Origin: a virus
Length of the DNA stretch: 64,000 nucleotides
Strand: one strand, 5' to 3'
IMG/VR virus record: IMGVR_UViG_3300044971_004534
The translations under genes were made by a program, and so were the position numbers. Every line of letters starts with the position of its first letter. The first letter of the stretch is position 1. A model generated the notes under the pieces. The model was not told where the DNA came from, searched no databases, and saw only the letters and a list, made by a program, of their open reading frames with translations. Positions 46,888 through 64,000 of this stretch are shown in pieces.

Positions 46888-49800
46888 TGGCACAATATAT
46901 TAATACATCACTTATTGCTGACAATGAATTTTGGGACGCATCTACTTGGAGAAGAATGTGTAGAGAGTTGGCTGGACTTCGTGGATTGGCTCCTGCTGTA
47001 CATTTTAGGAACACTGTTAACGACAGTGATTCTTCTCAAAACGTTGATGACGATAGAATTTTTCATACTCATACACACCAAAAAATTTACGTTTGGGGCG
47101 TTGAGATGTGTTCTGGAGGTTATGACACTTTAAAAATATACTGGAGAGCCCCCAGTAATCCGCCAGATGCTCAGTGGACTTTAGATAGTGGGTGGACTCT
47201 TATAAAGGGAGCTGGAGCTAAGACTAATGGAGGAAGCGGTACTGGTGCTGGTCAAACAAATCCGAACAATACCGCCAATATTCAGCCTGGGCCCAGCCCC
47301 TTTGGAAATATAGGAACTTCTGAAGCTACATTGGGTGGCACTGGTACTGGTTTACATTTCCCTCGCAGCAATCCGCTTCCTGACGGTTCTACTAATAACG
47401 TAGAATACTTTTATAATCAGTGGCTTTTAGAGATGAAACATAGTGGTGCGATTTATACTATGGCTGGTCCATCTCCAATCTATGATCAGGGTCAGGCTTA
47501 TACAACTCTTACTTCAAATTTTTTAAGAACTTTTTTACTAATGAAAGAAGGGTATTGGAAATTTGTATTAGATGAAACGGCGTCTCCTTGGTATAATCAA
47601 TCTTTAGGTTTGCCAACTACAAATTGGGATTCTGGATTAAAAACAGATTGGTTTAACTCAAAGGGTCGTTTATCTCCTGTTGATTATGCAACAAATCCTA
47701 CTCTTTATCAATCTTTGCCTGGTCATGTAGATGCTTCTAAAAATAGTCAAGTAGCTTCTACGGGAGTGAGATATAGGTCAAGGTTTACTAGATCTCTTAA
47801 TGTAAGAGCTTTTTTTCCTGAAAAAGATTTAGTTACTGGTTCTTTAATGACAAAAGTTTTTAAGACAATGACTCCTGGCGTAGCTACTAATGATTACCAG
47901 GTAGATGCTCCATATACAAAAGTTGTAGGTTACGGCGCTGAATGGGGTAGTTCTTTGCAGACTGCATCCAGTGCTCAATGGACAAAGTTTGTTAAAACAC
48001 GAAATTCTTCTGGGCAAGATGGAACTTCAGGATTCCCTCACACTACAGAAATTACATCAAATGAAAGATTTAGTAATGTAGAATGGAGGTATACTCCATT
48101 ATTTAAAAAGAGAGTTATTAATCGAAGACACTTGTTCATTGATGGAGTTACCATAAATGGTGGCGACAAGTTTGTAGACGGATATTACAGCGTTCAGGGG
48201 CTATGGGAGGAAGACCCAATTTACGTCAGGCCAGATGCGCCTGCAGCTCCTGGTACTTCTTTTCCATCTGGAGATGGGCAAGTCAAAGGATGGTTTGTTG
48301 ACTTTAGGGGTAGTGTATTTAGAAATTGCACTTTTAAAAATATTTTTATTGGCGGCAGGGACGAATCTTGTTGGTCTGGAGTATCTTTTGTAAACTGCAA
48401 ATTTATTAATTGTGCAGTAAATACAAATGGAGATTCTATTCTTTTTCATGAATGTTCTTTCATTGGTGGTTATAAAAATACCGCCATGTTTACGCCGACT
48501 ACATTTCATTCAAGTGCATTTATTAGTTGTCAGTTCTTAAATAATGATAGAGTGTTTATATTCTCTTCTGCCAAGGGGCCAGTTAGCGATAATCTTTGGT
48601 GGCGTAACATTTTTGATTATCAAGTTAATCAAAATGGTGGCGGCAGTGAAATATTTTGTACAGAATTTCCAAGCTTTATGAGATTCAGTGCTCAAACTTA
48701 TGCGTTTGATGCAACAGGTACTAGCATAACTTCCCATATAGTGCAGCAGCATGAATTCTCAAGAAATTTATTTATTAATAATCGTTTGCATAGTGGTCTT
48801 GGTGGTATAGTTTCATCATATGAGACTTTTAGTAGAGCTAATCTTTTCTATATGAATACCTTTAATGATACCATTAAGATATACGCGCATACTCCTGCTG
48901 GACTTAGCGAAGACAAGTGCCTGTATGAGTCTTGGGCGCATAACTTCATGCATAAGCTTTCTATTTCTCTAGATGGAAAAACTTATCATCATAGATTTAT
49001 ATGCAACGCTGTTTCTGAGCCTCAGTTTAGTAGTTTCAAGAGTATAGATAGTCACTATAGTCCCTATTCTCTTGGGACAGGAGTATGCGTCAATGCAGGT
49101 GGAGTTGAGGGCGACTCAAGCGCTCCATCTGGCCAATGGTATTGCGTTAATACAACTGCTATGGCTAATAAGGCTATAAGTAACGTCTTTTTAAACTGGG
49201 GCAATTACTTTATGGACAACCACTTGGGTCCATGTTCTATATTTAACGGATTTCATCATGTATATGATCCAAATTTTGATATTAATAAAAGTATAGATAA
49301 TTATTGGAGTCAAAATAATTTGTGGAAATACGTAAATGTTGCTCATAGAAATAAATTTAATTTGCCTTTTCCTGGTAAAAAATATGGTTGGCATGATGGT
49401 CTTATTGGTCGCTTAAATCCTGATGGAACCGAATGGTCTCCTCAGCATCACAACTCAAGTGGAGCAAGAAGTTTTTCTCCTTTGCCTTTAGAATGGAAGC
49501 TAGAGCATTACGACAATGGATGGAAAGTTTGGGATACATCTTACGGTGGACCTTCTGGTGGTTTTTATTGTTCACAAGATTCTTCTCATATTGCATCAAG
49601 AAATGAATGCCGTTCTATTTATGTTAAAAATTTAAGCAGTAATGTTTGGGAGAAGAAGAATAGCGGTGTTTTGTACAGTAATGAGGCTGTTTTGTCTTCT
49701 AGACAAGGTTGGGGTCAACAGATATTCAGAAATGATGTTATAACTGATGGTCTAATATTGGCTTTGAATGCGAGTGTCGTTAGCTCTTTCAACTATGGAA

Positions 49801-50555: not shown

Positions 50556-53138
50556 ATGTTTCAAGCTTATGATTCTCAATCTGCATTACGCGAAATGGTC
50601 GGCATAAGAGGCGCTGCACCTTCTATTCGTTTTAAAGAGTCTGTTCCTGGGCTCTCTGTTGAAAAAGAGGTCTTACATGTCCCAGCTAATGAGAGTGTTT
50701 ATGTTTGGGGAGTTGAGCTATTTAGTGGTGGTTTTGATTGTTTAAAAGTAACACATTATCCAGATGGGCAGCCGCCTGTGCTTATAAAAAATGGTGGCAA
50801 TGAAATATCTTTATTGAATAACAGGAAACAAATTAGTTACTTTTCAAACGGTGTAAAAATTGTTGAAACATTACCTTTTGATGATTTTTGGAACGAACCA
50901 TTTTTAGTTAATAAAAACGATGAAAAAATAGTAAAGAGTAATTTTTTTAGGTGTTTTATATTTGAGTCTGAGGGTTATTATAAATTTGAGATTGATGAGA
51001 CTTTTAATCCTAAATATTTAAGTCCTGATTTTTTACCTATCGATTATGCATCTGATCAGATCTATAGCTCTGGCAGTGGCAATAGGCAGGGAAACAGGGC
51101 TGCTACTTGGTCTGTCACAAAGTCAAAAAGCTCGACACCAGAAGATTACGCAAGATCTAACAGTTCATTAAAAAGAGAAATTTATTTAAGAGTTATATCT
51201 AGAGATAAAGACATAGTAAATGGCAGCACTATATCTAGAAATGTTTTCAATCTTTCTCCAGGTTTAGTGAAGTACGAAAATTTGCCTCCATGGACGGGTA
51301 CTAATCGTGATGCAAACGGAAATCCTCTCAGAGTTAATACGTTGGGTCCGTGGTATGTAGCTGGCAATAATGCTTACTACAATGTTGACGCCTATTATAA
51401 TAGCAACACTACCACTTCAGGTGCGCCTACTATAGACTTAAATCACGGCTGGCTGGGAAGGAACGCTGTATTTGCTCCGCAGTACACAATACAGGGCTTG
51501 ATGAATAATCTACTAGAAAATTCTTATAGACCATATTCAGACTATTTTAGGCAAGGCTGCCGGTATTACAATATGAGAAATGGTGTTATTGAAAACGTTA
51601 ATTTTTATGGGTCAGATTTTTCAGTAGTTCATCAATTTTTTATATTACCATATAGCTATTATAACGACTCTTTAAATGTTGCTTCTTCTGATGCAAATGT
51701 ATTTTTAAATACTACTAGATATTTACCATCAGGATCATCTCTGACTTCAGTTAGTATAGCTTCTGGCTCTCCTGCGATATTAACGTCAGCCAATCATGGC
51801 TTGACGGCTGGCACTCCCATTATGTTTAGTGGTGGCTCTTTGCCAGTTGGTATAAGTGCAAATACAATTTATTTTGTCACAAGTTCAAATTTAACGGCTA
51901 CTACTTTTACAATTAGTGCAACTTCTGGTGGTGCTCCAATAAATACTACTGGAGCTACGGCATCATCTTTTTATTACAGAGATTTTGTAAATATAGATTC
52001 AATTGATAATCTTGTAAGCTATTTAAACAATGGAGCAACTTTTCCAATATCGAGTCAAAACGCTTTGTCCACTCCTGATCAATATCAAAATAATGTTTTA
52101 GTAGATATGAGAGGTGCTGTTTTTAAGAATTGTACTTTTGATAAATATCAAATGAATTTAACACATAAATCTATGATGCTAGATGGTGCAGTATTTGAAA
52201 ATTGCACTTTTATTGGTTGTGGATCTGGCTATAACAATAGTGGTGGAATATTATACAAAAATTGTCATTTTGAAGAAATTAGTACGCAGGGTGATTTGAG
52301 TTTAACATGGGAGGCCGGTGGTTCTTGCTGCGTCATGGGATGTACTCAAAAATATACTGAAAGAGGCACTTTATTTTCTTTTCATAAAGGTGGCTTTAAT
52401 GATAGTATTTGGATAAGGCATTCATATCACGGCATAGACAGGTTTCAGATAGCAAATGAGCATTGGGTAATGGAATCTTGTTGTTGTGGAGATTGTGCTA
52501 CTTCAAATCGTTTTGACAATAATATGTTTATAATGAACAGAGGCTCTAAGGGGCCTTGCAGTATAGGTCTCTATAGAGCAAATTGTAAACTAAATTTAAT
52601 CGCATTTAATTCTTTTGAAGTTTATTCTGGAGGATCTAATTACTTTTTAGTCAATGATCCGGGTCGAGTTTTTGACTTAGAATGCAATGTTTTTCTGTAT
52701 AATGATTCAGTTGGGTGCGGTATTAGTATGCAATATTGGTCCCATAATAATAGGTTTATTAATTGTACATTTAGAAAAATTCAAAATTTTGCCAACCCAT
52801 GGGGTGGATATAATTGGGTAAGTCAGGATGAAGTGGATGGAAGAAATTTTTACACTTCTTATGGTTTTCTCAATTTACTTGGTACAGGTTCAGATGCTCC
52901 AACCAGTAATCTTATAATCAATTGTTCAATGATCGACTATCAAGATGATACCTATACTTGGGGCGCAGGTTATAGTTCAGATAATCTTTTTAGAATTAGT
53001 AATATTAATCCAGCCGTAAATGATTCTGAAATACTGTCAGGTAAAAATATTATTTATAATTTAAGAAGAATAATAGAAAACAGTGCAGATAGGACTCATC
53101 CTATAAGCAGTAGTAATCCTAATATAAGTAATTTGTAA
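50556..53138 (+). CDS. Paralog 2 of the triplicated beta-helix fibre family (860 aa), with an inserted small beta-domain
   Basis: AGAAGG (50544-50549) lies 6 nt upstream of the ATG. The N-terminal signature is MVGIRGAAPSIRF...VYVWGVELFSGGFDCLKV, followed by EGYYKFEIDET. The rungs read VDMRGAVFKNCTFDKY...FENCTFIGC...YKNCHFEE. An extra module SANHGLTAGTPIMFSGGSLPVGISANTIYFV...TFTISATSGGAPI lies at ~51750-51960. Confidence 0.88.
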   Translation: MFQAYDSQSALREMVGIRGAAPSIRFKESVPGLSVEKEVLHVPANESVYVWGVELFSGGFDCLKVTHYPDGQPPVLIKNGGNEISLLNNRKQISYFSNGVKIVETLPFDDFWNEPFLVNKNDEKIVKSNFFRCFIFESEGYYKFEIDETFNPKYLSPDFLPIDYASDQIYSSGSGNRQGNRAATWSVTKSKSSTPEDYARSNSSLKREIYLRVISRDKDIVNGSTISRNVFNLSPGLVKYENLPPWTGTNRDANGNPLRVNTLGPWYVAGNNAYYNVDAYYNSNTTTSGAPTIDLNHGWLGRNAVFAPQYTIQGLMNNLLENSYRPYSDYFRQGCRYYNMRNGVIENVNFYGSDFSVVHQFFILPYSYYNDSLNVASSDANVFLNTTRYLPSGSSLTSVSIASGSPAILTSANHGLTAGTPIMFSGGSLPVGISANTIYFVTSSNLTATTFTISATSGGAPINTTGATASSFYYRDFVNIDSIDNLVSYLNNGATFPISSQNALSTPDQYQNNVLVDMRGAVFKNCTFDKYQMNLTHKSMMLDGAVFENCTFIGCGSGYNNSGGILYKNCHFEEISTQGDLSLTWEAGGSCCVMGCTQKYTERGTLFSFHKGGFNDSIWIRHSYHGIDRFQIANEHWVMESCCCGDCATSNRFDNNMFIMNRGSKGPCSIGLYRANCKLNLIAFNSFEVYSGGSNYFLVNDPGRVFDLECNVFLYNDSVGCGISMQYWSHNNRFINCTFRKIQNFANPWGGYNWVSQDEVDGRNFYTSYGFLNLLGTGSDAPTSNLIINCSMIDYQDDTYTWGAGYSSDNLFRISNINPAVNDSEILSGKNIIYNLRRIIENSADRTHPISSSNPNISNL
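51750..51960 (+). other. Inserted small beta-domain (HGL-x-x-G ... LP-x-G-h ... YFV ... TF-x-h-S-x-T-x-GG-x-x-I) present only in paralog 2
   Basis: The sequence is SVSIASGSPAILTSANHGLTAGTPIMFSGGSLPVGISANTIYFVTSSNLTATTFTISATSGGAPINTTG. I have seen this pattern recurrently in phage tail and structural proteins but cannot name the family. Local G+C is higher than background (spot counts 42%, 50%, 32% and 42% for the four lines 51721-51960). Confidence 0.5.
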
Positions 53139-53139
53139 T

Positions 53140-54837
53140 ATGGGATACACAGATCTTAGTTTTTATCTTGGCTTACGTAGATTGGCTGGTATTAGATCAG
53201 CTGCTCCTGCGGTAATTGTTATTGATCAAAATTTAGGACAAGAAGTTTATGTGGTAAGGAAGAATGAAATTATCACATTATGGGGTTGTGAAATGATGCC
53301 TCTGCAATCAGATTGCATTCGTATAAGTTACAAATCCACTGCATCTTCTTCTTGGACTGTTTTAAAAGACTATTTAGCTCAGACATCATTGGGAATATTT
53401 GGAAGTAATGTTTCAACAGATCCTAATTTATTTTTATCTGGTTCTCCATCTCTGGCGGATAATTATGAGTTGAATGATCCTGTCTATAAGGACGGTTTTA
53501 AAATTAGTGGAGTGACTTATTGTAGAGAACATGATAGTCCTTTTAAAACAGTTGGGTATTCTGGATCATGGATATATAGGCAAGAACAGCAGATTCATGC
53601 CAAAGTTTCATACAACAATTTTGGACGAGGTTTTAGATTTTTTCAAGACGGATATTATAAGTTTGATTATGATGAATCAAAATCAGCATTGTACAAAAAA
53701 ACAACAGGTTCAGCTAATCCAGTAGATCCTGATGCTGCTGATTATAATACATTCAAATACAATGGTTCTGTGCCGTGGACCCCAGTAGATAGAAGCCTGT
53801 ATGAGCATGGCGATGTTTTATTAAGATCCATTATAATTAGATGTGCAACTAATTTTGATGCAGTTGCAAATGCAAGTTATAGCGATAGCGACTTGTCTTC
53901 TTTAAATCCAACAGTAAGTTCTTTGCCTATCAACACTAGTCAAAACATATGCAGAAAAATAGGGTTGCAAGTAAAGTCAAAATCTTATGATGTTTCTGGA
54001 GGTTCAAAGCCAACGTGTTCTGCTAATGGTTTTTTGATAGACATTTCATCTGCTGGAGTTGCATCGACTACTATTAATCAATTTGATACAAATATTTCGT
54101 TTACTAGTGGTACTATAGTTAAAAATATTAGAAATAGGACTTTTGACACTGTCAATTTTGTGGGTCCTGGCGATTTTGTTCAGCATATATCTCCAATTCC
54201 TGGTTCAGACTATTGTGCTCAGCCAGTTGATATGCGTAATTCTAGATTTTATAATTGCACATTTAAAAATGTTATTTTTGGATCTCCTGGAAAATCTCAA
54301 TTGATATTAGATGGTTCGATATTTTTTCAATGTAACTTTGAAAGTTGTAAGCTTTATTTAAATCCTAAAAACATATTATTTAAGAACTGTACTGTTAATA
54401 ATAGTTCAGTGTCTGAAGGATTTTTAATTATGAATGGATCTTTTGGTAATATGTTTACAGATCTTATTGTAAAAGACACTAACAGGCCATTTGTTTTTGT
54501 TAATAATGAAAATAGCAATAATAGTAATTTTATTATAATGAGTAATTTTAGTCAAGGTGGAGATGTGGAGCTAGGTAGCTGTCCATTTGTAAATGTAGTT
54601 CCTGGTTCTAATTCTGCTCATTCTTCTTCATTTTCTGGCAATATTATTATGCGTAATTATATTGATGATGGATCTGGAGATCCTGTCAGAATAGAAAAAA
54701 CTTCAGCTCATGGTAATTTTTTTGGTGGAAATTACATGATTTCCCATGGAAATCTATCTTTAGCAGAAGACTTGAAACAGAAGCAAAAAAATAAGGATTT
54801 TATTAGATATCCCAGTATTAAGCCCTATACTTCGTAA
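53140..54837 (+). CDS. Paralog 3 of the triplicated beta-helix fibre family (565 aa), minimal version
   Basis: The ATG lies 1 nt after the upstream stop. The N-terminal signature is LAGIRSAAPAVIV...ITLWGCEMMPLQSDCIRISY, followed by DGYYKFDYDES. The rungs read VDMRNSRFYNCTFKNVIFGS...FFQCNFESC...FKNCTVNN. Confidence 0.88.
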   Translation: MGYTDLSFYLGLRRLAGIRSAAPAVIVIDQNLGQEVYVVRKNEIITLWGCEMMPLQSDCIRISYKSTASSSWTVLKDYLAQTSLGIFGSNVSTDPNLFLSGSPSLADNYELNDPVYKDGFKISGVTYCREHDSPFKTVGYSGSWIYRQEQQIHAKVSYNNFGRGFRFFQDGYYKFDYDESKSALYKKTTGSANPVDPDAADYNTFKYNGSVPWTPVDRSLYEHGDVLLRSIIIRCATNFDAVANASYSDSDLSSLNPTVSSLPINTSQNICRKIGLQVKSKSYDVSGGSKPTCSANGFLIDISSAGVASTTINQFDTNISFTSGTIVKNIRNRTFDTVNFVGPGDFVQHISPIPGSDYCAQPVDMRNSRFYNCTFKNVIFGSPGKSQLILDGSIFFQCNFESCKLYLNPKNILFKNCTVNNSSVSEGFLIMNGSFGNMFTDLIVKDTNRPFVFVNNENSNNSNFIIMSNFSQGGDVELGSCPFVNVVPGSNSAHSSSFSGNIIMRNYIDDGSGDPVRIEKTSAHGNFFGGNYMISHGNLSLAEDLKQKQKNKDFIRYPSIKPYTS

Positions 54838-54894: not shown

Positions 54895-57800
54895 ATGACC
54901 TGGCCAGTTATTTCTTCAAGCAATCCTTTTGCTCAAACCATAAATCTCAGTTCTGATTCTGATTTACCACCTATAGCTAGATGGTCTAGCGTGCCCATGC
55001 AATGGGTTCACGATGGAGAATCGATAAGAGCATCTGTGGTAGCGTATCACTCTGCTGGTATACAAAGAGTTGATTTTATTTGCGACGGCGGAGAGTACGA
55101 GTCTGGTGGTCATATTATTAGCGTTATTAATCCTGTAGCGGACGCAGTTTCAAAGCAGGATGAGTATGCCTGTAGTATTGATATAGATAGTACTTGGCCT
55201 GAAGGAATTCATACAATCAGGGCTATTGTTTATTCTAATGCTGGCACTCAAAGAGTATTGCAGGGAACTTGGTTGCCAAAGTTTTCGTCCTCTTCAGACG
55301 AATATTCTTATGCATCGAATGGAGAGGTTGATTTTACTTTTATAGTTAATCGTGGATCTTATGACGGCATTACAGTTTATGTAGATTCTGTAAATGGCAA
55401 TGACGCTAATTCGGGTACTTTTGGCTCACCATTAAAAAATCTATGGAGCGCAATAGTTAAGATTCATGCAAGCCATACAGAAGGCTCTATTAGAGAAGAC
55501 GTTATTGTCTGTAAGGCTGGAGAGTATAGAATAAGCCCACTTGTCCAAAGCGATTATCCCGGCGGAGTGATTTCAGATGCACCATTGGGGTCTGGAAGAA
55601 TTGGTTGGTTGAAAATAAAGTCGATGGATGGTGTGAATAAAAAAGATGTGGTTATCACCAACCGTTCCATTAATTTTGGCAGTGTTGGATCTCCTTCAAG
55701 TTATACAGTACTTTCTAATTCTTTAGAATCTCGTTTTACTAATTTTGAAAATTTAACTTTAGAAAACTTTTATGATAGCAGTACAAATGTATCTGGAGAA
55801 AAGAATTTTATTATTAAAACTGGCGCGAATGTAGATAGCAGAGGAGTGTGGTTGAATGGCTGCAGTATTAGGGGAAAAGTAGGGGTATCTGTTGATACGT
55901 TAGTGTCTAGTTTAAATAGTCAGTCAAATATTTCTTTTAAAGCTTATCCTGGCATATCAGAGAATATAGTTGGGTTTGCTACTAATTGTTCAGTCAATGG
56001 CTTGTATAGAGGTTTTAAAGATTTTGCTTTAGTGAAGCAGTGTGGAATAGGCAGTGTCGTAGAGTACGCAGCAAAAAACTGTGCTGCTTTGATGTCGTGC
56101 AACATATCCAGTGTCGGGAATGTGGGAGCTGTATCTGGATCTGCAGTGATCAGCTTTACTGAAGATTCAGGAATAAAGAAAAATATTATTATATCTAAAA
56201 ATAATATTAATAAATCTGCTATTGCTCATTTTAGTTTTGATGCTAATGGAGCAACATTCAGTCCTAATGATTTTTACGAGAGTATAGCAATAGTCTCAAA
56301 TTATTTTACTAGATTTTCTGGTGGTCCAGGTAAGTCTTATATTTTTAATGGGATCAAGCAAGCATTTATTGTTCACAATAGTATGCTTGACAGTCTATCC
56401 TTTCATGATACACCAAATGGAGCGTGGACTAACCCAGCCAATGTGAGCAGCATATATTGCAGATACAATTTATTAAATGGAATTATAGTTGATTCAACAT
56501 CTGGCTCAACAGCTTCATTAGGTGCTGGTTTATCAAAGTTAAATACTTCTTTAACAAATTCAAATTCTGATATATCTGCAAATATATTTTTATTACCATC
56601 GGTTTCTTCTAACCCGCTTTTCTTATCTCTAATAGTAGCTAATCAGAACACGCAGGTAAATACAAGTTCACACAAAGTTGTCAAAAATTATTCTGAAGGA
56701 AATCTTGCTCTTTTGTGTGTTTCTCTTAATGGGGTTTCTAATCCAGCAAAAGGTTTAGAAAGTTCATCTATTTTGAATACTGACATTTTGGGTAATTCAT
56801 ATGAGAATTCTAAGGGAGATTGTGGTGCGAGACAGGATTGCACTGAAGAGGTTTCTCCAGATATTATAGAGACAACTGAAATTAAAACAGTTCCTATATC
56901 TGGATTTCCAATACTTGGAGCTAATCAAGTAGACTTCTTTCAGTCTTCTACTTTTGCTTTACAGTATCAGTTTAGCGCTTTTGATATGGTTCTTTGGTAT
57001 GATCAAAACGTAAGAAATTTTCCTGCTTCTGCTACAGAGACGGGATCACCTTACTACCCAGGTGGCTCTTATCAAGAGTGTCAGATTTGCACTTTGGGCC
57101 CAGGATTGTGCACAAGTACAGTTGATGGTGGCGCAAATTGGTTTAAGAGATGGAGTCTGCCTTCGAGTTTGACATTTGAGCTTTCTACTCTTCCTGCTTG
57201 TGACAGTGGGAATACTTCTAAGATAGCTGGTACTCGTGCTGCGTTTAGAGAGTATTTCGATGTTGATGGTATGGTGCGCGGAATGTCAAGGTATAACCCA
57301 GACTGGGCATTAGTATTTCTGCATGGTGGGTCAGAGCCATTGTGGTGGGATACTCAGATACCTGGAATGAGCCAATGGGCTTTGCTTAAAGATGATGGAG
57401 AAGAAAGCACTTCTATGGGTCTTGGAATGGACGTAGTGCAGGCCTACAAAGATGCATCAAATAAGTATAAGCAAAAATTGATGGCTTACTTTTTTCCATT
57501 TGCTTGGATTGAGTTAGATTCTTCTGTTTATCCTTATGCATTAGATATTTTTGGAAATCATGTTACTGAGGGCAGACATGGACCAACTATAAGCTATAGA
57601 TCTTCTTTTAATGATGCATTTGTTGACCTGCTATGCCAGATACATGTTGAGATGGCTCGCAAGTGTTTTGATATAGAAACAGGCTATGGATTCGCTGGGT
57701 GTATGTGGGATGCAGCTCCGATGTTGTATACACTTGACTTTAGTCCTGACGCAATTGCTGCATCTGGAATAGATGCTACTAAAGATTTTCCTTGGCCACT

Positions 57801-60800
57801 TAATAATCCGGCAGATGGTTCCAACACTGCTTTATTGACAGCATTTGTAAGTGAAGTTACCGCTAATGCGAATCCAGGTTCTCTCTTATTAAGAGATCCA
57901 AATCCCGCTAGAGGCTGGACACAGGATATTAAGGATAAGTTGCAGGCATATGTATATGCATTAAATAATCTTCAACCAGACATCATGCGCCGCATAAGAG
58001 AAGCTGTAGATGAAGCTGGATATTCTGATTTCGTGATCCTTCATGCTGTTGCAAACTCTCAGCCATCTTTTGAGTGGCCAGGCAATGCTGAAGATGTTGC
58101 ACTATATTCTTCTGGTGTCAAAACAGAAATAGGTGCAGAAGGCTATCTGAGAAGAAGGCAGGCTTCAAACGTTACTAGCAAAACTGGATCTAAAGCAGCT
58201 CCAGATTTATGGCTTGCCATGCATACAGATTTTTTAATGTCTCAGTCTAGAACTGGAAAAAGAGCTTATGGATGGCAAATTGGTCAATGGATTATACCAA
58301 ATTGGATAAGTGGTAGTGAATGTGACGCTACATTTAAATCTTGCTTAACAACTTTTGACGGTAATTATTCCAATAAAGTAGAGTTTAAAAACAATCTTCT
58401 TCCAAGAGATATAGCAGTACGTGGTTGGTTGGAAAACCAATCTTTATTAGCTCTGGCTTCTCACGTTACCCCAGAGTTTATGTATGGGTTTTATGATTGG
58501 TATAAATATGATCAAGTAGAAGACTTGTCAGGATTTGAGAATGCTGCAGACGCCTTTGCAATACAGCATCTTCCTTATATGAGAAGAATTTCTTCCATAC
58601 TTGGATCTGTTAGTGATGCAAACGTCAAGTTGCACAATAGATCAAATGTTGCATGGTGTGTTATATTGCATCGTCCAGAGCTGGGCTGGAAGACAAGTTT
58701 GTATATTAATACTGGTGTTAATGAATCATTCTCTGGCCCTGGTTTTGCTTACTACTGGCCAATATTTGGAGCTGTACAGACATGTGTTGAGCATGGCATT
58801 GCTCACGTTATTGCTCAGGATGATGCTTTTACTGCAAGTAATTTTGCAAATTCTGGAGTAGTTATAGTTCCTTTTGACAAAAATCTTTTGTCTGCTTCTG
58901 TGAGAAATGAGCTTGAATTATTTGATGGACTTGTCATATATGTGCAAGACGCCATAGCAAACGGTGAGCTTGATGATAATTTCCATAATACCCAGTCAGT
59001 TGGAAATAAAACAAGAGCTCAAGTTTCTAGAGATCAGTTGTGGAATTTGATGCAAAGAACTAATAAAAATTTAGTATTGCAAACAGAGTTTTCTTATCCT
59101 CAAAATTTGCCTGAATCTCCAATTCCGATGGTTGGTTATGAAATAGGAACTGATGTTTATGAAAATCAATCTCTACTTGTGACCTTAGTTGCAGATGCTG
59201 CTTGGCACGATGGTAGAAAATATGGATTCTTTGGTCTTACCGTCAATAACTATCCAGTAAATGGAGTTTGTGGTAGACAAAATTTGTTACTTGCATCTCC
59301 TAACGATCCAGAAAATGATCTTGTTAATTCTTTAAATTTAAGGAAAATATTAGATGTATGTAGTTGCACTTATACTGACACATTTACTACAATTAATACT
59401 ATAGCTGGTAGAGATTGCTATTATGTTAATCATTCTGCTGCTGGAGTAATACCGGTAGAGGTATTGCCAGCAAGAGGCAAGCTTAACTATTATGCTGGAT
59501 ATCCTCCAGTTTGGAATAGTAATAGAAGCGCAAGAATAACATTCAATGCTTCTCAAAAGCCTTATAGACTTAGACAGTTATTGTTAAATAAAGATGATGG
59601 AGTTTTTGGTCCAGTTGACATGTTTGTTAACAATGACTTTGTTGATGTTGTTCCGTTTGAAATTGGATCTTTTGTACAGGTTCAATTATCAGATGCTGAC
59701 ATTATCCCGCATGTTGGAATGTGTGTATCTGAAGATTTACTAAAAGTCGCCAGTGTTGATGATCTAATTTCTTTACTAAGTTTTTTAAGAGATCAGCCAG
59801 CATCATTCAACGTTATAAAAGTTAGATTGTCATGCGGTTCTTCAATGGTCGAAGGCGACGTAGTTGCTAATACTTTATTCACAGAAATCATTTCACATGC
59901 ACAGTCTAATCAAAATGCATATTCTTGGCTTGTAAATAATGTTGGGGAAATAGGAAGTCCTACTATTCACACTTTATTTGGCCTACTTAGATCTACGTCA
60001 CAAAATCCATGTGGAGATGGATCTTTCTCTGTTGGTGGAGTTTTAATACAAAATGAAGGTATCTGCAAAATTGCATCAGCGTTAACTTCACTATCTACTA
60101 TGTATAATCGTTTAACTAGCGATAGTCAATGTTACTGTGAATCTTCAGATACCTATAAGCTATACTCATCTAAGGTAAATTTAGACAGATCTTTAAGTCC
60201 TTCCGATGGCTCTAGCTGGGCTGCGACGGTAGAAGATGAAATCTCTGCCATATCAGACGCTAGCGATGGTTTAATGATGTACATTAGGCCTGTAAGTGAT
60301 ATTTCAAGTGATTACTACAATATTGACGTGAATGGTTTGCCAATTATAGATGGAATTGTTAAATATGTTTCTGATGTTAATGACGCAATACTTTCACATA
60401 CTGCTAACGTACAAGATGCTTCAGATTATTATGCAGGAGTCGTATTAGACTTTGAGCATCTTTTTAATATAAATAGCCCTCTTGCTACCTTGCACGCAGA
60501 CGCATGTTCTTACCCATTCTTTATAAATTCTCAGGGCTCAGATTCTTTTGACAATGTCAGGAGATCAATTGCTTATGTAAATGGCAGATTAATATCTGTG
60601 CTAAGTGCTATTAAATTTATAAATCCAAAACTACAGGTTTCTATAAGGGGTCTCGGAAGAATAGATGATGCTTTTGGCTTTGAGGAAAGTAAAGACTCTA
60701 GTGCAGTACATACGGCAGCAAATTGCACTCCAAAAGCACGTGAAGAGTTGTATAAAAGAGTATCAGAATTTTATGGTCCACTTTTAGAAGCTTGTGATTT

Positions 60801-63800
60801 CGTATACCTTTGGAATGCAAATGAATCTGAAGATGCAGATCTTTCTGGTATTATTCCTAGTATAGCCAAGGCTAATTTAAGACTTTCCTCTTTATCTAAG
60901 CACTTTGAATATAGACAAGCTAATCAGCCATTAATATTTGTTGAAATAAATGGAACATATTTGTCTTCTAATGGCAATTCGCCTAGTGATTACTGTGAAG
61001 TTTCAAGTGCAGAAATTCTCGCAGAGTCACTTGATCCGTTTATTCGTAATAGTATAGATGGATTTGTGTATTATGCTGGTCAAGAAAATATAGAAAAGTC
61101 TATTTTTGAAAATTGCCCAACTTCTATTTCTAATTCAGCAATTGCCGCAGCAGTATCTTCTTGCTGGGATGTTGCTATATCTAATTGCTCTAGTGAAAGC
61201 GGCGTAATATCTGCATTTGAATCTTCAATATTAAATCATATTGAGTTAATATCATCACATATTGGTGGAAGCACTACAGAATCTTATATTCCATTTATTA
61301 TTATGATGGGAGAGTCTAATGCTGGAGGTTTGGCAAAGAATTCAGAAGCTTTAGCTTCTGAATTAGGAACAAGAGATGAAGTTAAAATTTTAAATAATTA
61401 TACTTTAAATTTTGAAACTTTAAATATTAGTGCTACAGGTAATAATATTTTAGATCACCGTAACCCAAACGGTATACCAGATGTTACAGATTCTATATGG
61501 AATTCTAATGGTGGGCCTCCTCATGGCTGGGAGCTTGGTTTAGCTAATGCTGTAAGAGATGGAAAATTTGCAACAGATTTTGTCTATCTTCTAAAAACAG
61601 GTCATGGTGGTTCTAAGATTGGAGACAATGCTATTGATGGTGACTGGGACACCTCTGATACTTATTGGAATTTATTTGTCAATAGATTTAATGTCGCTAA
61701 ATCTGCTATTATTGCTGATGGATATACTCCACAGGTATATTTATGGTATGAAATAGGAATTAATGATTGCATATCTAATGTAAATCCATCTCAGTGGAAA
61801 ACAAAATTAGTACAAAAGTTTATAAATGTAAGATCTGCTGTAGGTGCAAATATACCAATATTCATAGTATTATTGCCAGATGTTGATATGTCCGGTGGCT
61901 CTATTGATAACATATCTGATTTCAATAATGCTATTTTAGAAATTTGTGCAGAAAATAACTTAATATATTGGGTTAAATCAGAAGATGCTCCATTAAAGTC
62001 TGGTGATATTTATCACTGGAATTATTATGGCATGAAAAATCTTGCTGATAAAATGTCGTACTTGACTGCAGATGTTATTGGTCAAGGCATAAATTATATT
62101 GCAAATATCGCAGTGGCTCCTAATCAGCCAGACTACAACAATTTTTCCCCAGTTATTGGATTTATACCTTACAGTAATTCATCAGATCCAGCTTTAGAGT
62201 TTGTTTATCCGTCATTCGAGGTTAGGGGTAGACTTTCTGGTAATGCCATAAATGACGAGCCAGGATCTGGTCCTTATCCAAGTAGTGATGGGTCTCCTTC
62301 GCAAGCTATATCTTTCTTTAATTCTAAGGGTATACCAGCAGCAAGAAGATCAGTATTCTATTTTAATATTGGATCATCAACATTTGATGGGGTATTTTCT
62401 GATCCTATATACAATAGAACTTATGAACAACTATATAATTCATCAGACAGTTGTATAGATGCAAATGGAGATATAGTAAGACAAGACACGTTAGATCCAA
62501 GAGAGGCTCAAAATCCTACTTATAGAGGAAGTCTAGCTTTTGTTTCTCCGTGGACATTAGGAGCAAATACAAGACTTGAACAATTTACTCGTCAATGGGT
62601 TGGAGAATATAAAAATTTAAATGGAAAGATTTATGGCTTTATATCTGATAATGAATCCCTCAACCCAACTGGCTTTTGGGCTGTCCCATCTTTAAGGTAT
62701 GACAACAATAACACTTCTCGCATTCCGCACTTCCAAAAAATAATTAATGATCCAAGATCCTTGCTTACTAATGAAAGTGCTGGATACGCTTTTGAAATTG
62801 GTAAAAACCTGAAAGACCAATTAAGGCTGAATGATTTTTACAACATAAACGATTTTGACTCCGTTGATTTTAGAACTATTGATGACCCGCAGTTCAGGGG
62901 AGGCTACCTGCACTGGGATTATGTGATGTATAGGCATGCCATATGGTATGCTCAAAAGCACTGGTACGATGCCATTAGTGATTATTTTCCAAATCATAAT
63001 TCAACACATGTTTGGACATTCTATATTCCCAAAGAAGATCATTTTAATGATATGAATGGTCATATTACTTACAGAGATATGCTTTGTGGTAATACTGCAA
63101 ATCCTTTATTGTTTGGAGAATGTGGTGGAATTGGAATCAACAGTGAAATAGATCCAAACAATAAAACACGAACAAGATTCTTATCTCAATACAATCCTGG
63201 TGGAACTCCTTTTGGCTCTAGGGCTTGGAATAGCTTGTTGTTGCAGCAACAGGAAATAAAGGCAATACGTAGACATCCAGAAAATCAAAAATTTATACCA
63301 TGGATAGGAAGTAGAAATCTTATTTTGAATAACGCTTTTGGTGGTGGATCAGATGTGAATCATGATTCTCTGTGGGCTGAGGGAGTATATCACTTAGCTT
63401 TACACAATCCAGAAGCTATATACATGTTCTACCCCAGAAATCCAGATGGAGCTGGGGACACTGCTTGGTATATTGAGAATGGTCTAGTTTCTTATCAATT
63501 ATTAAATTCTATATTGAAAGAAGTGAATGAAAGAACTGGAAATAAAATTGTTTCTCTTGTTGAAAGTTCTATACAAAGAATAAACCTTGATAGTAAAGTT
63601 TTAATAACTGGTTGCAAAACTATTAAAAATAAACATCTATGGAGAATAACGGCAGATGTTTTACATGTTAATTCTTTGAATATAGATGGTTCTGTTTTTG
63701 CAGTACAGTCTAGCAGTCCTGCCATATGGTATGAAACTGGAACAAATGTTGCAGCAATCAATATTCTTTCTTATGATCCAGTTACTAAGACTTTAAATCT

Positions 63801-64000
63801 TGTGTCTTCATCTGCAGAAGCTCCTTTGTGTAAGTCTTGTATGTCTGCATTCATTTCTCCAGCTATTACTGCTTCAGAGTTTAATGTTGATAAAAATTCA
63901 TTCCCTCAAAACATTTTCTCTATGATAGAAATTAGTGATCGTGTTTTGTCAAGAGATACTTATGATCCTAATGGCGCGTGTGCAGCCAATGCTTCCGCAA
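54895..64000 (+). CDS. Giant multi-domain protein (>=3,035 aa, 3' end beyond the window) with an Ig-like N-terminus, a pectate-lyase-type beta-helix and an SGNH/SASA-type esterase domain
   Basis: Not in the supplied ORF track. I translated frame 1 from the ATG at 54895 (MTWPVISSSNPFAQ...). I then checked it codon by codon over 54895-55500, 58561-58740 and 61261-64000, and no stop occurs. The track also lists no frame-1 ORF fragments anywhere in 54.9-64 kb, consistent with one frame open to the window end (last codons ...NGACAANASA). Domain evidence is given in separate features. Confidence 0.9.
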   Translation, partial: MTWPVISSSNPFAQTINLSSDSDLPPIARWSSVPMQWVHDGESIRASVVAYHSAGIQRVDFICDGGEYESGGHIISVINPVADAVSKQDEYACSIDIDSTWPEGIHTIRAIVYSNAGTQRVLQGTWLPKFSSSSDEYSYASNGEVDFTFIVNRGSYDGITVYVDSVNGNDANSGTFGSPLKNLWSAIVKIHASHTEGSIREDVIVCKAGEYRISPLVQSDYPGGVISDAPLGSGRIGWLKIKSMDGVNKKDVVITNRSINFGSVGSPSSYTVLSNSLESRFTNFENLTLENFYDSSTNVSGEKNFIIKTGANVDSRGVWLNGCSIRGKVGVSVDTLVSSLNSQSNISFKAYPGISENIVGFATNCSVNGLYRGFKDFALVKQCGIGSVVEYAAKNCAALMSCNISSVGNVGAVSGSAVISFTEDSGIKKNIIISKNNINKSAIAHFSFDANGATFSPNDFYESIAIVSNYFTRFSGGPGKSYIFNGIKQAFIVHNSMLDSLSFHDTPNGAWTNPANVSSIYCRYNLLNGIIVDSTSGSTASLGAGLSKLNTSLTNSNSDISANIFLLPSVSSNPLFLSLIVANQNTQVNTSSHKVVKNYSEGNLALLCVSLNGVSNPAKGLESSSILNTDILGNSYENSKGDCGARQDCTEEVSPDIIETTEIKTVPISGFPILGANQVDFFQSSTFALQYQFSAFDMVLWYDQNVRNFPASATETGSPYYPGGSYQECQICTLGPGLCTSTVDGGANWFKRWSLPSSLTFELSTLPACDSGNTSKIAGTRAAFREYFDVDGMVRGMSRYNPDWALVFLHGGSEPLWWDTQIPGMSQWALLKDDGEESTSMGLGMDVVQAYKDASNKYKQKLMAYFFPFAWIELDSSVYPYALDIFGNHVTEGRHGPTISYRSSFNDAFVDLLCQIHVEMARKCFDIETGYGFAGCMWDAAPMLYTLDFSPDAIAASGIDATKDFPWPLNNPADGSNTALLTAFVSEVTANANPGSLLLRDPNPARGWTQDIKDKLQAYVYALNNLQPDIMRRIREAVDEAGYSDFVILHAVANSQPSFEWPGNAEDVALYSSGVKTEIGAEGYLRRRQASNVTSKTGSKAAPDLWLAMHTDFLMSQSRTGKRAYGWQIGQWIIPNWISGSECDATFKSCLTTFDGNYSNKVEFKNNLLPRDIAVRGWLENQSLLALASHVTPEFMYGFYDWYKYDQVEDLSGFENAADAFAIQHLPYMRRISSILGSVSDANVKLHNRSNVAWCVILHRPELGWKTSLYINTGVNESFSGPGFAYYWPIFGAVQTCVEHGIAHVIAQDDAFTASNFANSGVVIVPFDKNLLSASVRNELELFDGLVIYVQDAIANGELDDNFHNTQSVGNKTRAQVSRDQLWNLMQRTNKNLVLQTEFSYPQNLPESPIPMVGYEIGTDVYENQSLLVTLVADAAWHDGRKYGFFGLTVNNYPVNGVCGRQNLLLASPNDPENDLVNSLNLRKILDVCSCTYTDTFTTINTIAGRDCYYVNHSAAGVIPVEVLPARGKLNYYAGYPPVWNSNRSARITFNASQKPYRLRQLLLNKDDGVFGPVDMFVNNDFVDVVPFEIGSFVQVQLSDADIIPHVGMCVSEDLLKVASVDDLISLLSFLRDQPASFNVIKVRLSCGSSMVEGDVVANTLFTEIISHAQSNQNAYSWLVNNVGEIGSPTIHTLFGLLRSTSQNPCGDGSFSVGGVLIQNEGICKIASALTSLSTMYNRLTSDSQCYCESSDTYKLYSSKVNLDRSLSPSDGSSWAATVEDEISAISDASDGLMMYIRPVSDISSDYYNIDVNGLPIIDGIVKYVSDVNDAILSHTANVQDASDYYAGVVLDFEHLFNINSPLATLHADACSYPFFINSQGSDSFDNVRRSIAYVNGRLISVLSAIKFINPKLQVSIRGLGRIDDAFGFEESKDSSAVHTAANCTPKAREELYKRVSEFYGPLLEACDFVYLWNANESEDADLSGIIPSIAKANLRLSSLSKHFEYRQANQPLIFVEINGTYLSSNGNSPSDYCEVSSAEILAESLDPFIRNSIDGFVYYAGQENIEKSIFENCPTSISNSAIAAAVSSCWDVAISNCSSESGVISAFESSILNHIELISSHIGGSTTESYIPFIIMMGESNAGGLAKNSEALASELGTRDEVKILNNYTLNFETLNISATGNNILDHRNPNGIPDVTDSIWNSNGGPPHGWELGLANAVRDGKFATDFVYLLKTGHGGSKIGDNAIDGDWDTSDTYWNLFVNRFNVAKSAIIADGYTPQVYLWYEIGINDCISNVNPSQWKTKLVQKFINVRSAVGANIPIFIVLLPDVDMSGGSIDNISDFNNAILEICAENNLIYWVKSEDAPLKSGDIYHWNYYGMKNLADKMSYLTADVIGQGINYIANIAVAPNQPDYNNFSPVIGFIPYSNSSDPALEFVYPSFEVRGRLSGNAINDEPGSGPYPSSDGSPSQAISFFNSKGIPAARRSVFYFNIGSSTFDGVFSDPIYNRTYEQLYNSSDSCIDANGDIVRQDTLDPREAQNPTYRGSLAFVSPWTLGANTRLEQFTRQWVGEYKNLNGKIYGFISDNESLNPTGFWAVPSLRYDNNNTSRIPHFQKIINDPRSLLTNESAGYAFEIGKNLKDQLRLNDFYNINDFDSVDFRTIDDPQFRGGYLHWDYVMYRHAIWYAQKHWYDAISDYFPNHNSTHVWTFYIPKEDHFNDMNGHITYRDMLCGNTANPLLFGECGGIGINSEIDPNNKTRTRFLSQYNPGGTPFGSRAWNSLLLQQQEIKAIRRHPENQKFIPWIGSRNLILNNAFGGGSDVNHDSLWAEGVYHLALHNPEAIYMFYPRNPDGAGDTAWYIENGLVSYQLLNSILKEVNERTGNKIVSLVESSIQRINLDSKVLITGCKTIKNKHLWRITADVLHVNSLNIDGSVFAVQSSSPAIWYETGTNVAAINILSYDPVTKTLNLVSSSAEAPLCKSCMSAFISPAITASEFNVDKNSFPQNIFSMIEISDRVLSRDTYDPNGACAANASA
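55372..55450 (+). other. N-terminal cap signature of a right-handed parallel beta-helix (pectate-lyase fold / DUF1565-like)
   Basis: The segment ITVYVDSVNGNDANSGTFGSPLKNLWSAIVKI matches the common hYVd..G.D.N.GT...P.kth..A motif that precedes pectin-lyase-fold helices in polysaccharide depolymerases and tailspikes. Downstream to ~56700 the sequence is rich in short N/G/S-containing repeats consistent with helix rungs. Confidence 0.55.
61291..62040 (+). other. SGNH-hydrolase (SASA / carbohydrate O-acetylesterase-like) domain with all four catalytic blocks
   Basis: Block I is PFIIMMGESNAGG (GxSN, compare GQSNM of SASA) at 61291. Block II is LLKTGHGGSKIG at ~61591. Block III is VYLWYEIGINDC (GxND) at ~61735. 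Block V is SGDIYHWNYYG (DxxH) at ~61999. Their order and spacing (about 95, 45 and 90 aa) are as in SGNH/SASA esterases. Confidence 0.7.

What the first reader, a model, noticed from the sequence alone, without database searches (positions are those of the whole stretch)
61291..62040. Complete SGNH/SASA esterase catalytic signature embedded deep in the giant fibre-like protein
All four SGNH blocks are present in canonical order: GESN (nucleophile Ser), GHGGS, GINDC (GxND) and DIYH (DxxH). SASA/CE-type SGNH esterases remove O-acetyl groups from sialic acids and other surface polysaccharides. Receptor-destroying or receptor-editing esterases are known in some viral attachment proteins and phage tailspikes. 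Here the domain sits ~2,130 aa into a protein of more than 3,000 aa that also carries a pectate-lyase-type beta-helix. That suggests a dual-activity enzymatic fibre combining depolymerase and deacetylase functions.
Basis: partly seen in the sequence, partly recalled or inferred. Interest (0 to 1): 0.75.

Follow-up and report, generated by a model that had tools for sequence, protein, structure and literature searches.

The report
Esterase domain inside a giant protein
A real and probably active sugar-deacetylating esterase domain (SGNH fold, SASA family) sits about 2,130 residues into a 7,798-residue protein of an uncultivated, probably viral genome of about 400 kb; such esterases are already well known in phage host-recognition proteins, so the domain is ordinary, although the protein carrying it is very large and otherwise unrecognisable.

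Summary
The four SGNH blocks (GESN, GHGGS, GINDC, DIYH) occur once, in order, at aa 2139-2374 of an ORF starting at 54895 (0 of 500 shuffles). The excised domain passes Pfam SASA's threshold. It has 540 cluster-representative homologues in which the Ser, Asn, Asp and His are 83-100% conserved. Its AlphaFold model (pLDDT 87.8) matches the SASA/CE6-type structures 2apj and 1zmb best, and phage tailspike esterases in the viral library.

The "pectate-lyase beta-helix" has no profile support beyond a 30-40-residue cap motif. "Fibre" and "phage" are inferred, not shown.

New facts:
- The full gene encodes 7,798 aa, on contigs of 401-406 kb.
- The esterase is the head of an 850-aa cassette (aa 2132-2981) that also occurs at the start of a 2,096-aa protein and as the C-terminal body of a 1,000-aa protein.
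- The only homologue of the N-terminal 2,096 aa lacks the cassette.
- Stand-alone relatives lie in phage structural regions.

SGNH deacetylases in phage receptor-binding proteins are established, including a dual depolymerase-esterase tailspike (epsilon15 gp20). This is a new member of a known kind.

The parts
54895..64000 (+). First 3,035 codons of a giant ORF. The full gene is called at 7,798 aa on longer contigs that are identical to the window over the 20,861 nt compared.
61285..62079 (+). SGNH-fold, SASA-family esterase domain (aa ~2131-2395)
   Evidence: Pfam SASA above threshold; AlphaFold pLDDT 87.8, structured elements at residues 9-273 of the 280-aa query; Foldseek best matches 2apj and 1zmb; family HMM score 309 bits
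61309..61320 (+). Block I, GESN. Ser2141 (nt 61315-61317) is the predicted nucleophile.
   Evidence: G/E/S/N 98-99% conserved in 145 homologous domains. A weak, individually non-significant sub-alignment places it on SGQSN of 2apj.
61600..61614 (+). Block II, GHGGS, carrying the oxyanion glycine. The family consensus is GQGGS.
61756..61770 (+). Block III, GINDC (GxND). Asn2290 is at nt 61762-61764.
   Evidence: N 100% and D 94% conserved; aligned to QGESD of 2apj and 1zmb
62005..62016 (+). Block V, DIYH. Asp2371 and His2374 complete the predicted triad.
   Evidence: D 83%, H 99% and the following W 97% conserved; aligned to D235/H238 of 2apj
61183..61284 (+). Poorly conserved linker (aa 2097-2130) at the point where homology to P0001 ends and homology to P0002/P0003 begins
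   Evidence: BLAST boundaries; 40% identity to the orthologue over aa 2097-2131, against 65-82% in the flanking modules
62080..63837 (+). Module of unknown fold (aa 2396-2981) that always travels with the esterase. Together they form the 850-aa cassette aa 2132-2981.
   Evidence: 55% identity to P0002 residues 10-857 and 39% to P0003 residues 159-996; conserved motifs SPWT, GF(I/L)SDNES, WDYV, AFGG; AlphaFold failed and the PDB profile search found nothing
55369..55467 (+). Motif YVDSVNGNDANSGTFGSPLKNLW (aa ~159-191), the only sequence support for a beta-helix in the N-terminal region
   Evidence: Weak matches to 6kqs lacto-N-biosidase (E 0.39), phrog_30606 (E 0.0018) and NCBIfam LIC10774 (20.7 bits against a cut-off of 380)
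57157..59598 (+). Module aa 755-1568 of unknown function. It recurs twice more (23-24% identity) in the C-terminal part of the orthologous giant ORF in L005.

Best explanation
Residues ~2131-2395 of the giant protein form a catalytically competent SGNH esterase of the SASA (Pfam PF03629, CE6-like) family. Ser2141 (GESN) would be the nucleophile. Its backbone NH, Gly2238 (GHGGS) and Asn2290 (GIND) would form the oxyanion hole, and Asp2371/His2374 (DIYH) would complete the triad. The domain most likely removes O-acetyl groups from a surface polysaccharide (capsule, O-antigen or another cell-wall glycan) of an unknown host. It is the leading domain of a mobile 850-aa cassette (esterase plus a ~590-aa partner of unknown fold). 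That cassette elsewhere forms the business end of a 1,000-aa protein with a short N-terminal region, the layout of a phage receptor-binding protein. Here it has been joined, through a poorly conserved linker, behind a 2,096-aa N-terminal portion and in front of about 4,800 further residues. I read the whole protein as a virion-associated string of several host-surface-processing modules, encoded by a ~400-kb uncultivated phage. Shown: the domain's identity, conserved catalytic residues, fold, purifying selection and cassette boundaries. Inferred: enzymatic activity, a polysaccharide substrate, virion association and the phage nature of the replicon. The confidence given is for the whole statement. 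For the parts I estimate: real SGNH/SASA-type domain about 0.97, catalytically active about 0.8, phage-borne about 0.65.
For: Domain identity:
- The motifs are present and ordered, with 0 of 500 shuffles matching.
- Pfam SASA scores 34-35 bits against a 24.8 cut-off, and 43 of 44 short homologues also hit SASA.
- There are 540 homologous cluster representatives, with catalytic S/N/D/H conserved at 99/100/83/99%.
- The AlphaFold model has pLDDT 87.8 and pTM 0.89.
- The best PDB fold matches are 2apj (E 5.5e-11, TM 0.69/0.78) and 1zmb, followed by GDSL and carbohydrate esterases.
- A sequence profile hits 2apj at E 1.2e-11 with blocks II, III and V aligned.

Selection: the orthologue in L005 keeps all four blocks, with pN 0.19 against pS 0.69.

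Cassette: P0002 and P0003 share aa 2132-2981, whereas P0001 shares only aa 1-2096.

Phage link:
- BFVD matches include Klebsiella KP8 and Salmonella Vi06 and ViI tailspike-type proteins.
- Stand-alone relatives lie beside portal, prohead protease and DUF6712 genes.
- A 74%-identical giant ORF lies on an IMG/VR contig of 223,646 bp.
- Contigs carrying the window's proteins top out at 401,021 and 406,100 bp.
- None of the 17 window ORFs has a signal peptide or membrane segment.
- Consecutive ORFs share N-terminal domains, as sets of tail fibres do.
- There are weak PHROG tail hits.
- The ORF after the giant in L005 carries a pectate-lyase-like domain typical of tailspikes.

Precedent: SGNH receptor-binding proteins are proven esterases (PMC13123978; epsilon15 gp20 preprint).
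Against: - No activity data exist, and I could not inspect model coordinates, so the catalytic geometry is unverified.
- The Pfam hit is partial (profile 61-220) and was lost in the full-length scan.
- PHROGs and NCBIfam have no match for the domain.
- Seven queries from the window (one DNA, six protein) found nothing in 50,697 GenBank phage records.
- No capsid, portal or terminase gene was seen on the replicon itself.
- No virion-anchor, trimerisation or chaperone domain was recognised in the giant protein.
- An enzyme 2,130 residues into a 7,798-aa chain does not resemble any characterised tail fibre.
- The substrate cannot be predicted from sequence.
Confidence: 0.55

Rival explanations
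1. The replicon is cellular or a non-viral element (for example a fragment of a small or predatory bacterial genome). On this reading the giant protein is a secreted or surface enzyme array, and the esterase deacetylates prey or environmental polysaccharide or peptidoglycan rather than serving phage adsorption.
For: No phage hallmark gene was seen on the replicon, and GenBank phages gave no hits. Giant genes with cell-wall-degrading domains are described in bacteria such as Omnitrophota (10.1101/2023.11.21.568195). Dockerin-like, RCC1 and glycosyltransferase domains in the window are common in cellular proteins. Some family members are bacterial-type multidomain proteins (P0091: Ig_7, Reg_prop, Beta_helix).
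Against: None of the 17 ORFs has a signal peptide or membrane anchor. An exact-match scan of 185,579 GTDB species genomes found nothing, though that is an exact match against representative genomes only. A close relative is filed in IMG/VR. Contig lengths plateau near 401-406 kb in independent assemblies. The nearest stand-alone esterases are in phage structural modules. The window has no tRNA or Rfam hit.
Confidence: 0.17
2. The domain is an esterase, but its target is not a receptor polysaccharide. It could be peptidoglycan O-acetyl groups (an Ape-like role that helps cell-wall penetration or lysis) or a lipid or small-molecule ester.
For: Fold matches include the peptidoglycan O-acetylesterase Ape1 and GDSL lipolytic enzymes, but with much weaker scores (E 1e-3 to 1e-5, TM 0.4-0.5). 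The Lipase_GDSL_2 profile gives a weak hit.
Against: The best sequence and fold matches are to the SASA/CE6 carbohydrate esterase branch. The best viral matches are tailspike-type proteins.
Confidence: 0.12
3. The domain serves as a glycan-binding (lectin-like) or O-acetyl-transferring module rather than a hydrolase.
For: SGNH folds also include O-acetyltransferases. The family profile weakly hits the chains deposited as 'Acetyltransferase', 6vjp and 6wn9 (E 0.0025-0.0034, C-terminal third only). Inactive enzyme folds are sometimes reused for binding in receptor-binding proteins (general knowledge).
Against: Every catalytic and oxyanion residue is intact and conserved across 145 homologues and in the orthologue. 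An extracellular virion protein has no acetyl donor. The closest relatives are hydrolases.
Confidence: 0.06

Closest known systems
Pfam SASA (PF03629) / CAZy CE6-type SGNH carbohydrate esterases, represented by the structures 2apj (Arabidopsis At4g34215) and 1zmb (Clostridium acetobutylicum acetylxylan-esterase-related enzyme)
   Same: The Pfam score is above the gathering score, and 43 of 44 homologues hit the same model. These are the best fold matches (TM 0.67-0.78). A sequence profile gives E 1.2e-11 and 4.9e-8, with blocks II, III and V aligned residue for residue and block I aligned only weakly.
   Different: Block I reads GESN, not GQSN. Block III reads GIND, not QGESD. The family has extra invariant residues (N2149, N2183, H2210-G-x-E2213, W2251, R2264, W2375). 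The query has two insertions of its own, after aa ~2185 and after block II. Sequence identity to the solved structures is only 16-18%. No PHROGs or NCBIfam model covers it.
SGNH esterase receptor-binding proteins of phages: E. coli phage G7C gp63.1, Klebsiella prophage SGNH tail fibres, and the Salmonella Vi06 and ViI proteins E1XUC0 and E1XTI0
   Same: It has the same fold and the same proposed job, deacetylating a surface polysaccharide without cutting it. Vi06, ViI and KP8 proteins are among the best viral structure matches (E 5e-8 to 5e-10, TM ~0.65). Activity of G7C gp63.1 and of two Klebsiella prophage proteins is reported in PMC13123978.
   Different: Those proteins are 550-850 aa, with a recognisable N-terminal anchor and the esterase at or near the C-terminal end. 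Here the domain is internal to a 7,798-aa chain. Sequence identity is 13-17%, and tblastn of the domain against GenBank phages finds nothing.
Salmonella phage epsilon15 tailspike gp20 (beta-helix endorhamnosidase plus a protruding SGNH esterase domain)
   Different: In gp20 the beta-helix is established by crystallography. Here the beta-helix is unproven, and the esterase's fixed neighbour is a module of unknown fold.
Haemagglutinin-esterases of influenza C, toroviruses and coronaviruses, and mammalian sialate O-acetylesterase SIAE
   Same: They use the SGNH fold as a receptor-destroying enzyme (own knowledge). SIAE structures appear among the fold matches (E ~8e-4, TM ~0.5).
   Different: The similarity is much weaker than to the CE6-type proteins. 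Nothing points to a sialic-acid substrate.

Membership tests
SGNH hydrolase superfamily | Conserved blocks I, II, III and V carrying Ser, Gly, Asn and His (with Asp three residues before His), in that order | tested here: met
   GESN 2139-2142, GHGGS 2236-2240, GIND 2288-2291 and DIYH 2371-2374, conserved at 83-100% in 145 homologous domains
SGNH hydrolase superfamily | Three-layer alpha/beta/alpha (flavodoxin-like) fold with a central parallel sheet | tested here: met
   AlphaFold model with pLDDT 87.8 and pTM 0.89, with alternating strands and helices. Nearly all significant PDB matches are SGNH/GDSL or carbohydrate esterases.
SGNH hydrolase superfamily | Ser-His-Asp triad and oxyanion hole in catalytic geometry | not testable with these tools
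   Model coordinates cannot be inspected. The only support is the alignment of D/H to D235/H238 of 2apj, plus a weak sub-alignment of Ser to S31.
SGNH hydrolase superfamily | Ester hydrolysis that depends on the block I serine | not testable with these tools
   Needs a recombinant protein assay.
Pfam SASA PF03629 (CE6-like carbohydrate esterases) | Score at or above the family's gathering score | tested here: met
   34.4 and 35.1 bits against 24.8 for the excised domain. The match is partial (profile 61-220 of 226) and was not reported in the 3,035-aa scan. 43 of 44 homologues match, and several multidomain members match the profile nearly end to end.
Pfam SASA PF03629 (CE6-like carbohydrate esterases) | Family-typical motifs GQSN (block I) and QGE(S)D (block III) | tested here: inconclusive
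   Here the motifs are GESN and GIND. The catalytic Ser and the acidic/Asn positions are kept, but the motif variants define a separate subfamily.
Pfam SASA PF03629 (CE6-like carbohydrate esterases) | Closest solved structures belong to the family | tested here: met
   2apj and 1zmb are the top matches both by fold and by sequence profile. That they belong to PF03629 is my own knowledge.
Phage tail fibre / tailspike (receptor-binding protein) | Encoded in the structural or tail module of a phage genome | tested here: inconclusive
   An IMG/VR relative exists. There are weak PHROG tail hits in neighbouring ORFs and shared N-terminal domains among neighbouring ORFs. No hallmark gene was seen and GenBank phages gave no match.
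Phage tail fibre / tailspike (receptor-binding protein) | Recognisable virion-anchor domain and trimeric fibre, beta-helix or chaperone elements | tested here: not met
   No Pfam, PHROGs or NCBIfam hit of that kind anywhere in aa 1-3035.
Pectate-lyase-like right-handed beta-helix depolymerase | Profile match to the beta-helix families (Beta_helix, Pect-lyase_RHGA_epim, Pectate_lyase and others) | tested here: not met
   No hit at E<=0.1 in overlapping 400-aa segments. hhalign against the Beta_helix-bearing protein P0091 was negative. Only the cap motif at aa ~151-193 matches weakly.
Pectate-lyase-like right-handed beta-helix depolymerase | Predicted beta-helix fold | not tested

The most novel reading that the evidence does not exclude
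The 7,798-aa protein is a single-chain concatenation of several otherwise independent receptor-binding or glycan-processing cassettes: the N-terminal module, the thrice-repeated 800-aa module and the SGNH cassette. It would be carried by a ~400-kb phage whose genome devotes more than 70 kb to such giant proteins. That would make it a 'polyvalent' attachment organelle built by fusing genes rather than by branching fibres, and one of the largest virus-encoded proteins.
Probability: 0.3. Interest if true: 0.6.

Novelty: new member of a known kind. Interest (0 to 1): 0.35.

Why it matters
The esterase is the only part of about 25,000 residues of giant, otherwise unannotatable proteins in this window with a clear, testable biochemical function. 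That makes it the practical entry point for experiments: expression, a p-nitrophenyl-acetate assay, glycan arrays and host identification through O-acetylated polysaccharides. It also documents a large, mostly phage-borne SASA subfamily (GESN/GIND motifs, 540 cluster representatives) that PHROGs and NCBIfam do not cover. And it gives a clear case of cassette exchange between receptor-binding-type proteins of very different sizes. It does not reveal a new mechanism, because deacetylating tail proteins, including dual-activity ones, are already established.

Tried and rejected
- **Single-sequence PDB search of the domain:** only chance hits. It was superseded by the profile search.
- **Partner module aa 2383-2992:** the AlphaFold model from a 3-sequence alignment had pLDDT 35.6 and was unusable, so I ran no fold search on it. 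The word-index homologue search found nothing, and the PDB profile search found nothing. My idea that it is a clan GH-A glycosidase (the 'DNES' and 'GECGG' motifs) is dropped, because the second glutamate is not conserved in P0002 or P0003.
- **N-terminal beta-helix:** Pfam, PHROGs, NCBIfam, the PDB profile search and hhalign were all negative except for the cap motif.
- **Rest of the gene and the organism's name:** exact-pattern scans of genome, viral and metagenome collections found nothing. A relative search in metagenome contigs also found nothing. Residues 3315-7798 of this exact protein were therefore never seen, and I used the 74%-identical orthologue in L005 instead.
- **GenBank phage searches:** seven queries, no match.
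- **C-terminal part of P0001,** which replaces the cassette: no Pfam domain.
- **Second SGNH copy:** none in the window or the related loci.
Full report
**1. The observation**

Window 61291-62040 translated in frame 1 reads PFIIMMGESN...GHGGS...GINDC...DIYH. The frame is part of an ORF that begins at ATG 54895 and is still open at the window's end, giving at least 3,035 codons with no stop. The four blocks lie at aa 2139-2142, 2236-2240, 2288-2292 and 2371-2374, and each string occurs once in the protein. A regular expression for the ordered blocks matches once in the six-frame translation of the window and in none of 500 shuffles.

**2. Is it an SGNH/SASA domain?**

Sequence evidence:
- Pfam on the excised region gives SASA (PF03629) at E 2.3e-8 and 34.4 bits, against a gathering score of 24.8, plus a weak Lipase_GDSL_2 hit (repeated).
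- Two caveats apply. The match covers only profile positions 61-220 of 226, and the SASA hit vanished when the whole 3,035 aa were scanned.
- An exhaustive HMMER search of 1.84 billion cluster representatives settled the matter. It found 540 proteins at E<=1e-3, 419 at <=1e-10 and 40 at <=1e-30, and nearly all of the 150 best listed cover almost the whole domain.
- In an alignment of 145 of these domains, G-E-S-N is 98-99% conserved. Block II is G(Q/H)GGS. In GxND, N is 100% and D 94% conserved. In DxxHW, D is 83%, H 99% and W 97% conserved.
- 43 of 44 short family members hit Pfam SASA on their own.

Structure evidence:
- An AlphaFold model built on the 44-sequence alignment has mean pLDDT 87.8 and pTM 0.89. 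The low-confidence parts are two loops that are longer in this protein than in its short relatives.
- Foldseek against the PDB puts 2apj (Arabidopsis At4g34215; E 5.5e-11, TM 0.69/0.78) and 1zmb (Clostridium acetobutylicum acetylxylan-esterase-related enzyme) first. GDSL esterases, CE2/CE3 esterases and mammalian SIAE follow at far weaker scores.
- A sequence profile of the family also finds 2apj (E 1.2e-11) and 1zmb (E 4.9e-8). The alignment puts GQGGS on ASGGT/AEGGS, QGIND on QGESD, and D..HW on D235..H238 of 2apj. A weak sub-alignment puts GESN on SGQS31N.

The domain is a divergent subfamily of SASA/CE6-type esterases. PHROGs and NCBIfam contain no model that recognises it.

**3. Is it maintained?**

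A 74%-identical orthologue of the giant ORF lies on IMG/VR contig UViG_3300042326_002445 (L005). Across the esterase domain the two are 69% identical, with all four blocks kept. Non-synonymous differences are 0.19 per site against a saturated 0.69 for synonymous sites, a ratio of roughly 0.1. The ratio is approximate because synonymous sites are saturated. The segments bracketing the cassette (aa 2097-2131 and 2982-3035) are only 40-44% identical, as expected of linkers.

**4. The carrier protein**

Longer contigs that are identical to the window over the 20,861 nt compared call the gene at 7,798 aa (7,788 on one contig). They include a 401,021-bp JGI contig and a 179,655-bp NCBI record. The longest contig holding the window's proteins is 406,100 bp.

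The word-index search with the whole 3,035 aa found a single homologue among 5.8 billion clusters. This is P0001 (3,285 aa), which is 43% identical over aa 1-2096 and then unrelated, and it has no esterase.

The esterase and the ~590 residues after it (aa 2132-2981) match two other proteins:
- They are 55% identical to residues 10-857 of P0002, a complete 2,096-aa ORF.
- They are 39% identical to residues 159-996 of P0003, a complete 1,000-aa ORF that ends with the cassette.

The esterase is therefore the first domain of a mobile 850-aa cassette. In P0003 the cassette follows a 158-aa N-terminal region, the layout of an ordinary phage receptor-binding protein.

The partner module has conserved motifs (SPWT, GF(I/L)SDNES, WDYV, AFGG), but its fold stayed out of reach. 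AlphaFold gave pLDDT 35.6 from three sequences, and the PDB profile and homologue searches were empty.

Another module, aa 755-1568, recurs twice more in the C-terminal part of the L005 orthologue at 23-24% identity. The protein thus looks like a string of modules.

**5. The beta-helix claim**

Pfam found nothing of the kind on the whole protein or on overlapping 400-aa segments, and neither did PHROGs or NCBIfam. The only signal is the stretch YVDSVNGNDANSGTFGSPLKNLW (aa ~159-191). It weakly matches the corresponding stretch of three entries:
- 6kqs, a lacto-N-biosidase (E 0.39);
- phrog_30606 (E 0.0018);
- the Leptospira LIC10774 surface-protein model (20.7 bits against a cut-off of 380).

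A profile comparison with P0091, a protein that carries a Pfam Beta_helix domain, was negative. A beta-helix is plausible but not demonstrated.

In the L005 relative, the ORF after the giant gene does carry a Pect-lyase_RHGA_epim domain (E 5e-13). Depolymerase-type proteins therefore exist in this gene neighbourhood.

**6. What kind of genome is it?**

The window holds 17 tightly packed ORFs, all on the + strand. GC content is 31-37% with positive GC skew throughout. There is no tRNA and no Rfam family.

Pfam recognises almost nothing. The hits are a GT4 glycosyltransferase, RCC1 repeats in a 3,288-aa protein and a dockerin-like motif.

For a phage:
- a relative is filed in IMG/VR;
- contig length plateaus near 401-406 kb in separate assemblies;
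- weak PHROG hits to tail proteins;
- no signal peptide or membrane segment in any of the 17 proteins;
- three consecutive ORFs (46887, 50556, 53140) share a ~100-aa N-terminal domain, and ORFs 3666 and 34410 share another, as sets of tail fibres do;
- the stand-alone esterase relatives P0152, P0088 and P0154 lie next to portal, prohead-protease and DUF6712 genes or among small phage-like ORFs.

Against: no hallmark gene was seen on this replicon, and seven queries found nothing in GenBank phages. I put the phage reading at roughly two in three.

**7. Mechanism**

By analogy with the SGNH superfamily, Ser2141 attacks the acetyl ester. The tetrahedral intermediate is stabilised by the Ser backbone NH, the block II glycine and Asn2290. 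His2374, oriented by Asp2371, acts as the general base.

The most likely substrate is an O-acetylated surface polysaccharide of the host, and the effect is receptor editing that lets the particle bind or move through the glycan layer. This mechanism and role are inferred. What is shown is the domain family, the conserved residues, the fold, the selection and the cassette structure.

**8. Comparison with what is known**

SGNH esterases in phage receptor-binding proteins are well documented:
- G7C gp63.1 removes an O-acetyl group from LPS.
- SGNH hydrolases are among the commonest enzymatic domains in Klebsiella prophage receptor-binding proteins, and two of them were shown to be active (PMC13123978).
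- The epsilon15 tailspike gp20 combines a beta-helix endorhamnosidase with an SGNH esterase domain and is proposed to both deacetylate and cleave the O-antigen (bioRxiv 10.64898/2026.07.31.742079).

What differs here is the branch of the superfamily (a SASA-type GESN/GIND subfamily), the internal position in a 7,798-aa chain, and the unknown partner module.

**9. Verdict**

The domain is a new member of a known kind. Interest is moderate to low for the esterase itself. The carrier protein and the surrounding array of giant ORFs are the more unusual objects, but they lie outside this finding and remain uncharacterised.

Noticed in passing
window 54895-64000 and beyond (L002, L004): The ORF holding the esterase is called at 7,798 aa on contigs identical to the window. 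Contigs carrying the window's proteins reach 401,021 and 406,100 bp in different samples, which may be the full size of the replicon.
   Followed up: partly
window 1-64000: All 17 ORFs of at least 150 aa that are plausibly genes lie on the + strand, are tightly packed or overlap by a few bases, and include proteins of 3,288, 2,807, 1,848 and 1,708 aa. Almost none has a Pfam or PHROGs match, none has a signal peptide or membrane segment, and the window has no tRNA or Rfam hit.
   Followed up: partly
window 46887-47306, 50556-50975, 53140-53559: Three consecutive ORFs (1,218, 860 and 565 aa) share an N-terminal domain of about 100 aa (32-34% identity, motif L-x-G-I-R-G-A-A-P) and then diverge. 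This is the pattern of tail fibres that share one attachment site.
   Followed up: partly
window 3666-4025 and 34410-34769: The 1,221-aa and 1,848-aa ORFs share an N-terminal domain (31% identity, motif F-x-L-x-x-F ... R-x-R-F-x-x-I-D).
   Followed up: no
window 57157-59598 (aa 755-1568); L005 ORF aa 3776-4562 and 4983-5592: An ~800-aa module of unknown function in the giant protein recurs twice more, at 23-24% identity, in the C-terminal part of the orthologous giant ORF.
   Followed up: partly
L005 953-2104: In the IMG/VR relative the giant ORF carries an extra 384-aa N-terminal region, joined through a poly-serine linker to the residues that correspond to this window's start codon (MPISSDNPF against MTWPVISSSNPF). 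This is either a gene fusion or a different start.
   Followed up: no
L005 17774-18973: The ORF after the giant gene in the relative has a Pect-lyase_RHGA_epim (PF12708) domain (E 5e-13), typical of tailspike depolymerases. A dockerin-like calcium-binding motif lies in the relative's giant ORF (L005 14750-16102).
   Followed up: no
window 7264-8415: A GT4-type glycosyltransferase (Pfam Glycos_transf_1 E 7e-10; phrog_2170 E 1e-26) sits between the giant ORFs. Its longest reading overlaps the preceding ORF by 68 nt, and other assemblies call it at 375 aa.
   Followed up: no
window 8417-18283 and 19792-24918: The 3,288-aa protein has RCC1 repeats (E 5e-18, around aa 1829-2039), and the 1,708-aa protein has a dockerin type I motif near its N-terminus (E 4e-7).
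   Followed up: no
L001 10001-19858 (P0001): The only homologue of the giant protein's first 2,096 aa continues with 1,200 unrelated residues that have no Pfam domain, in place of the esterase cassette. The exchange point coincides with the poorly conserved linker at aa 2097-2131.
   Followed up: yes
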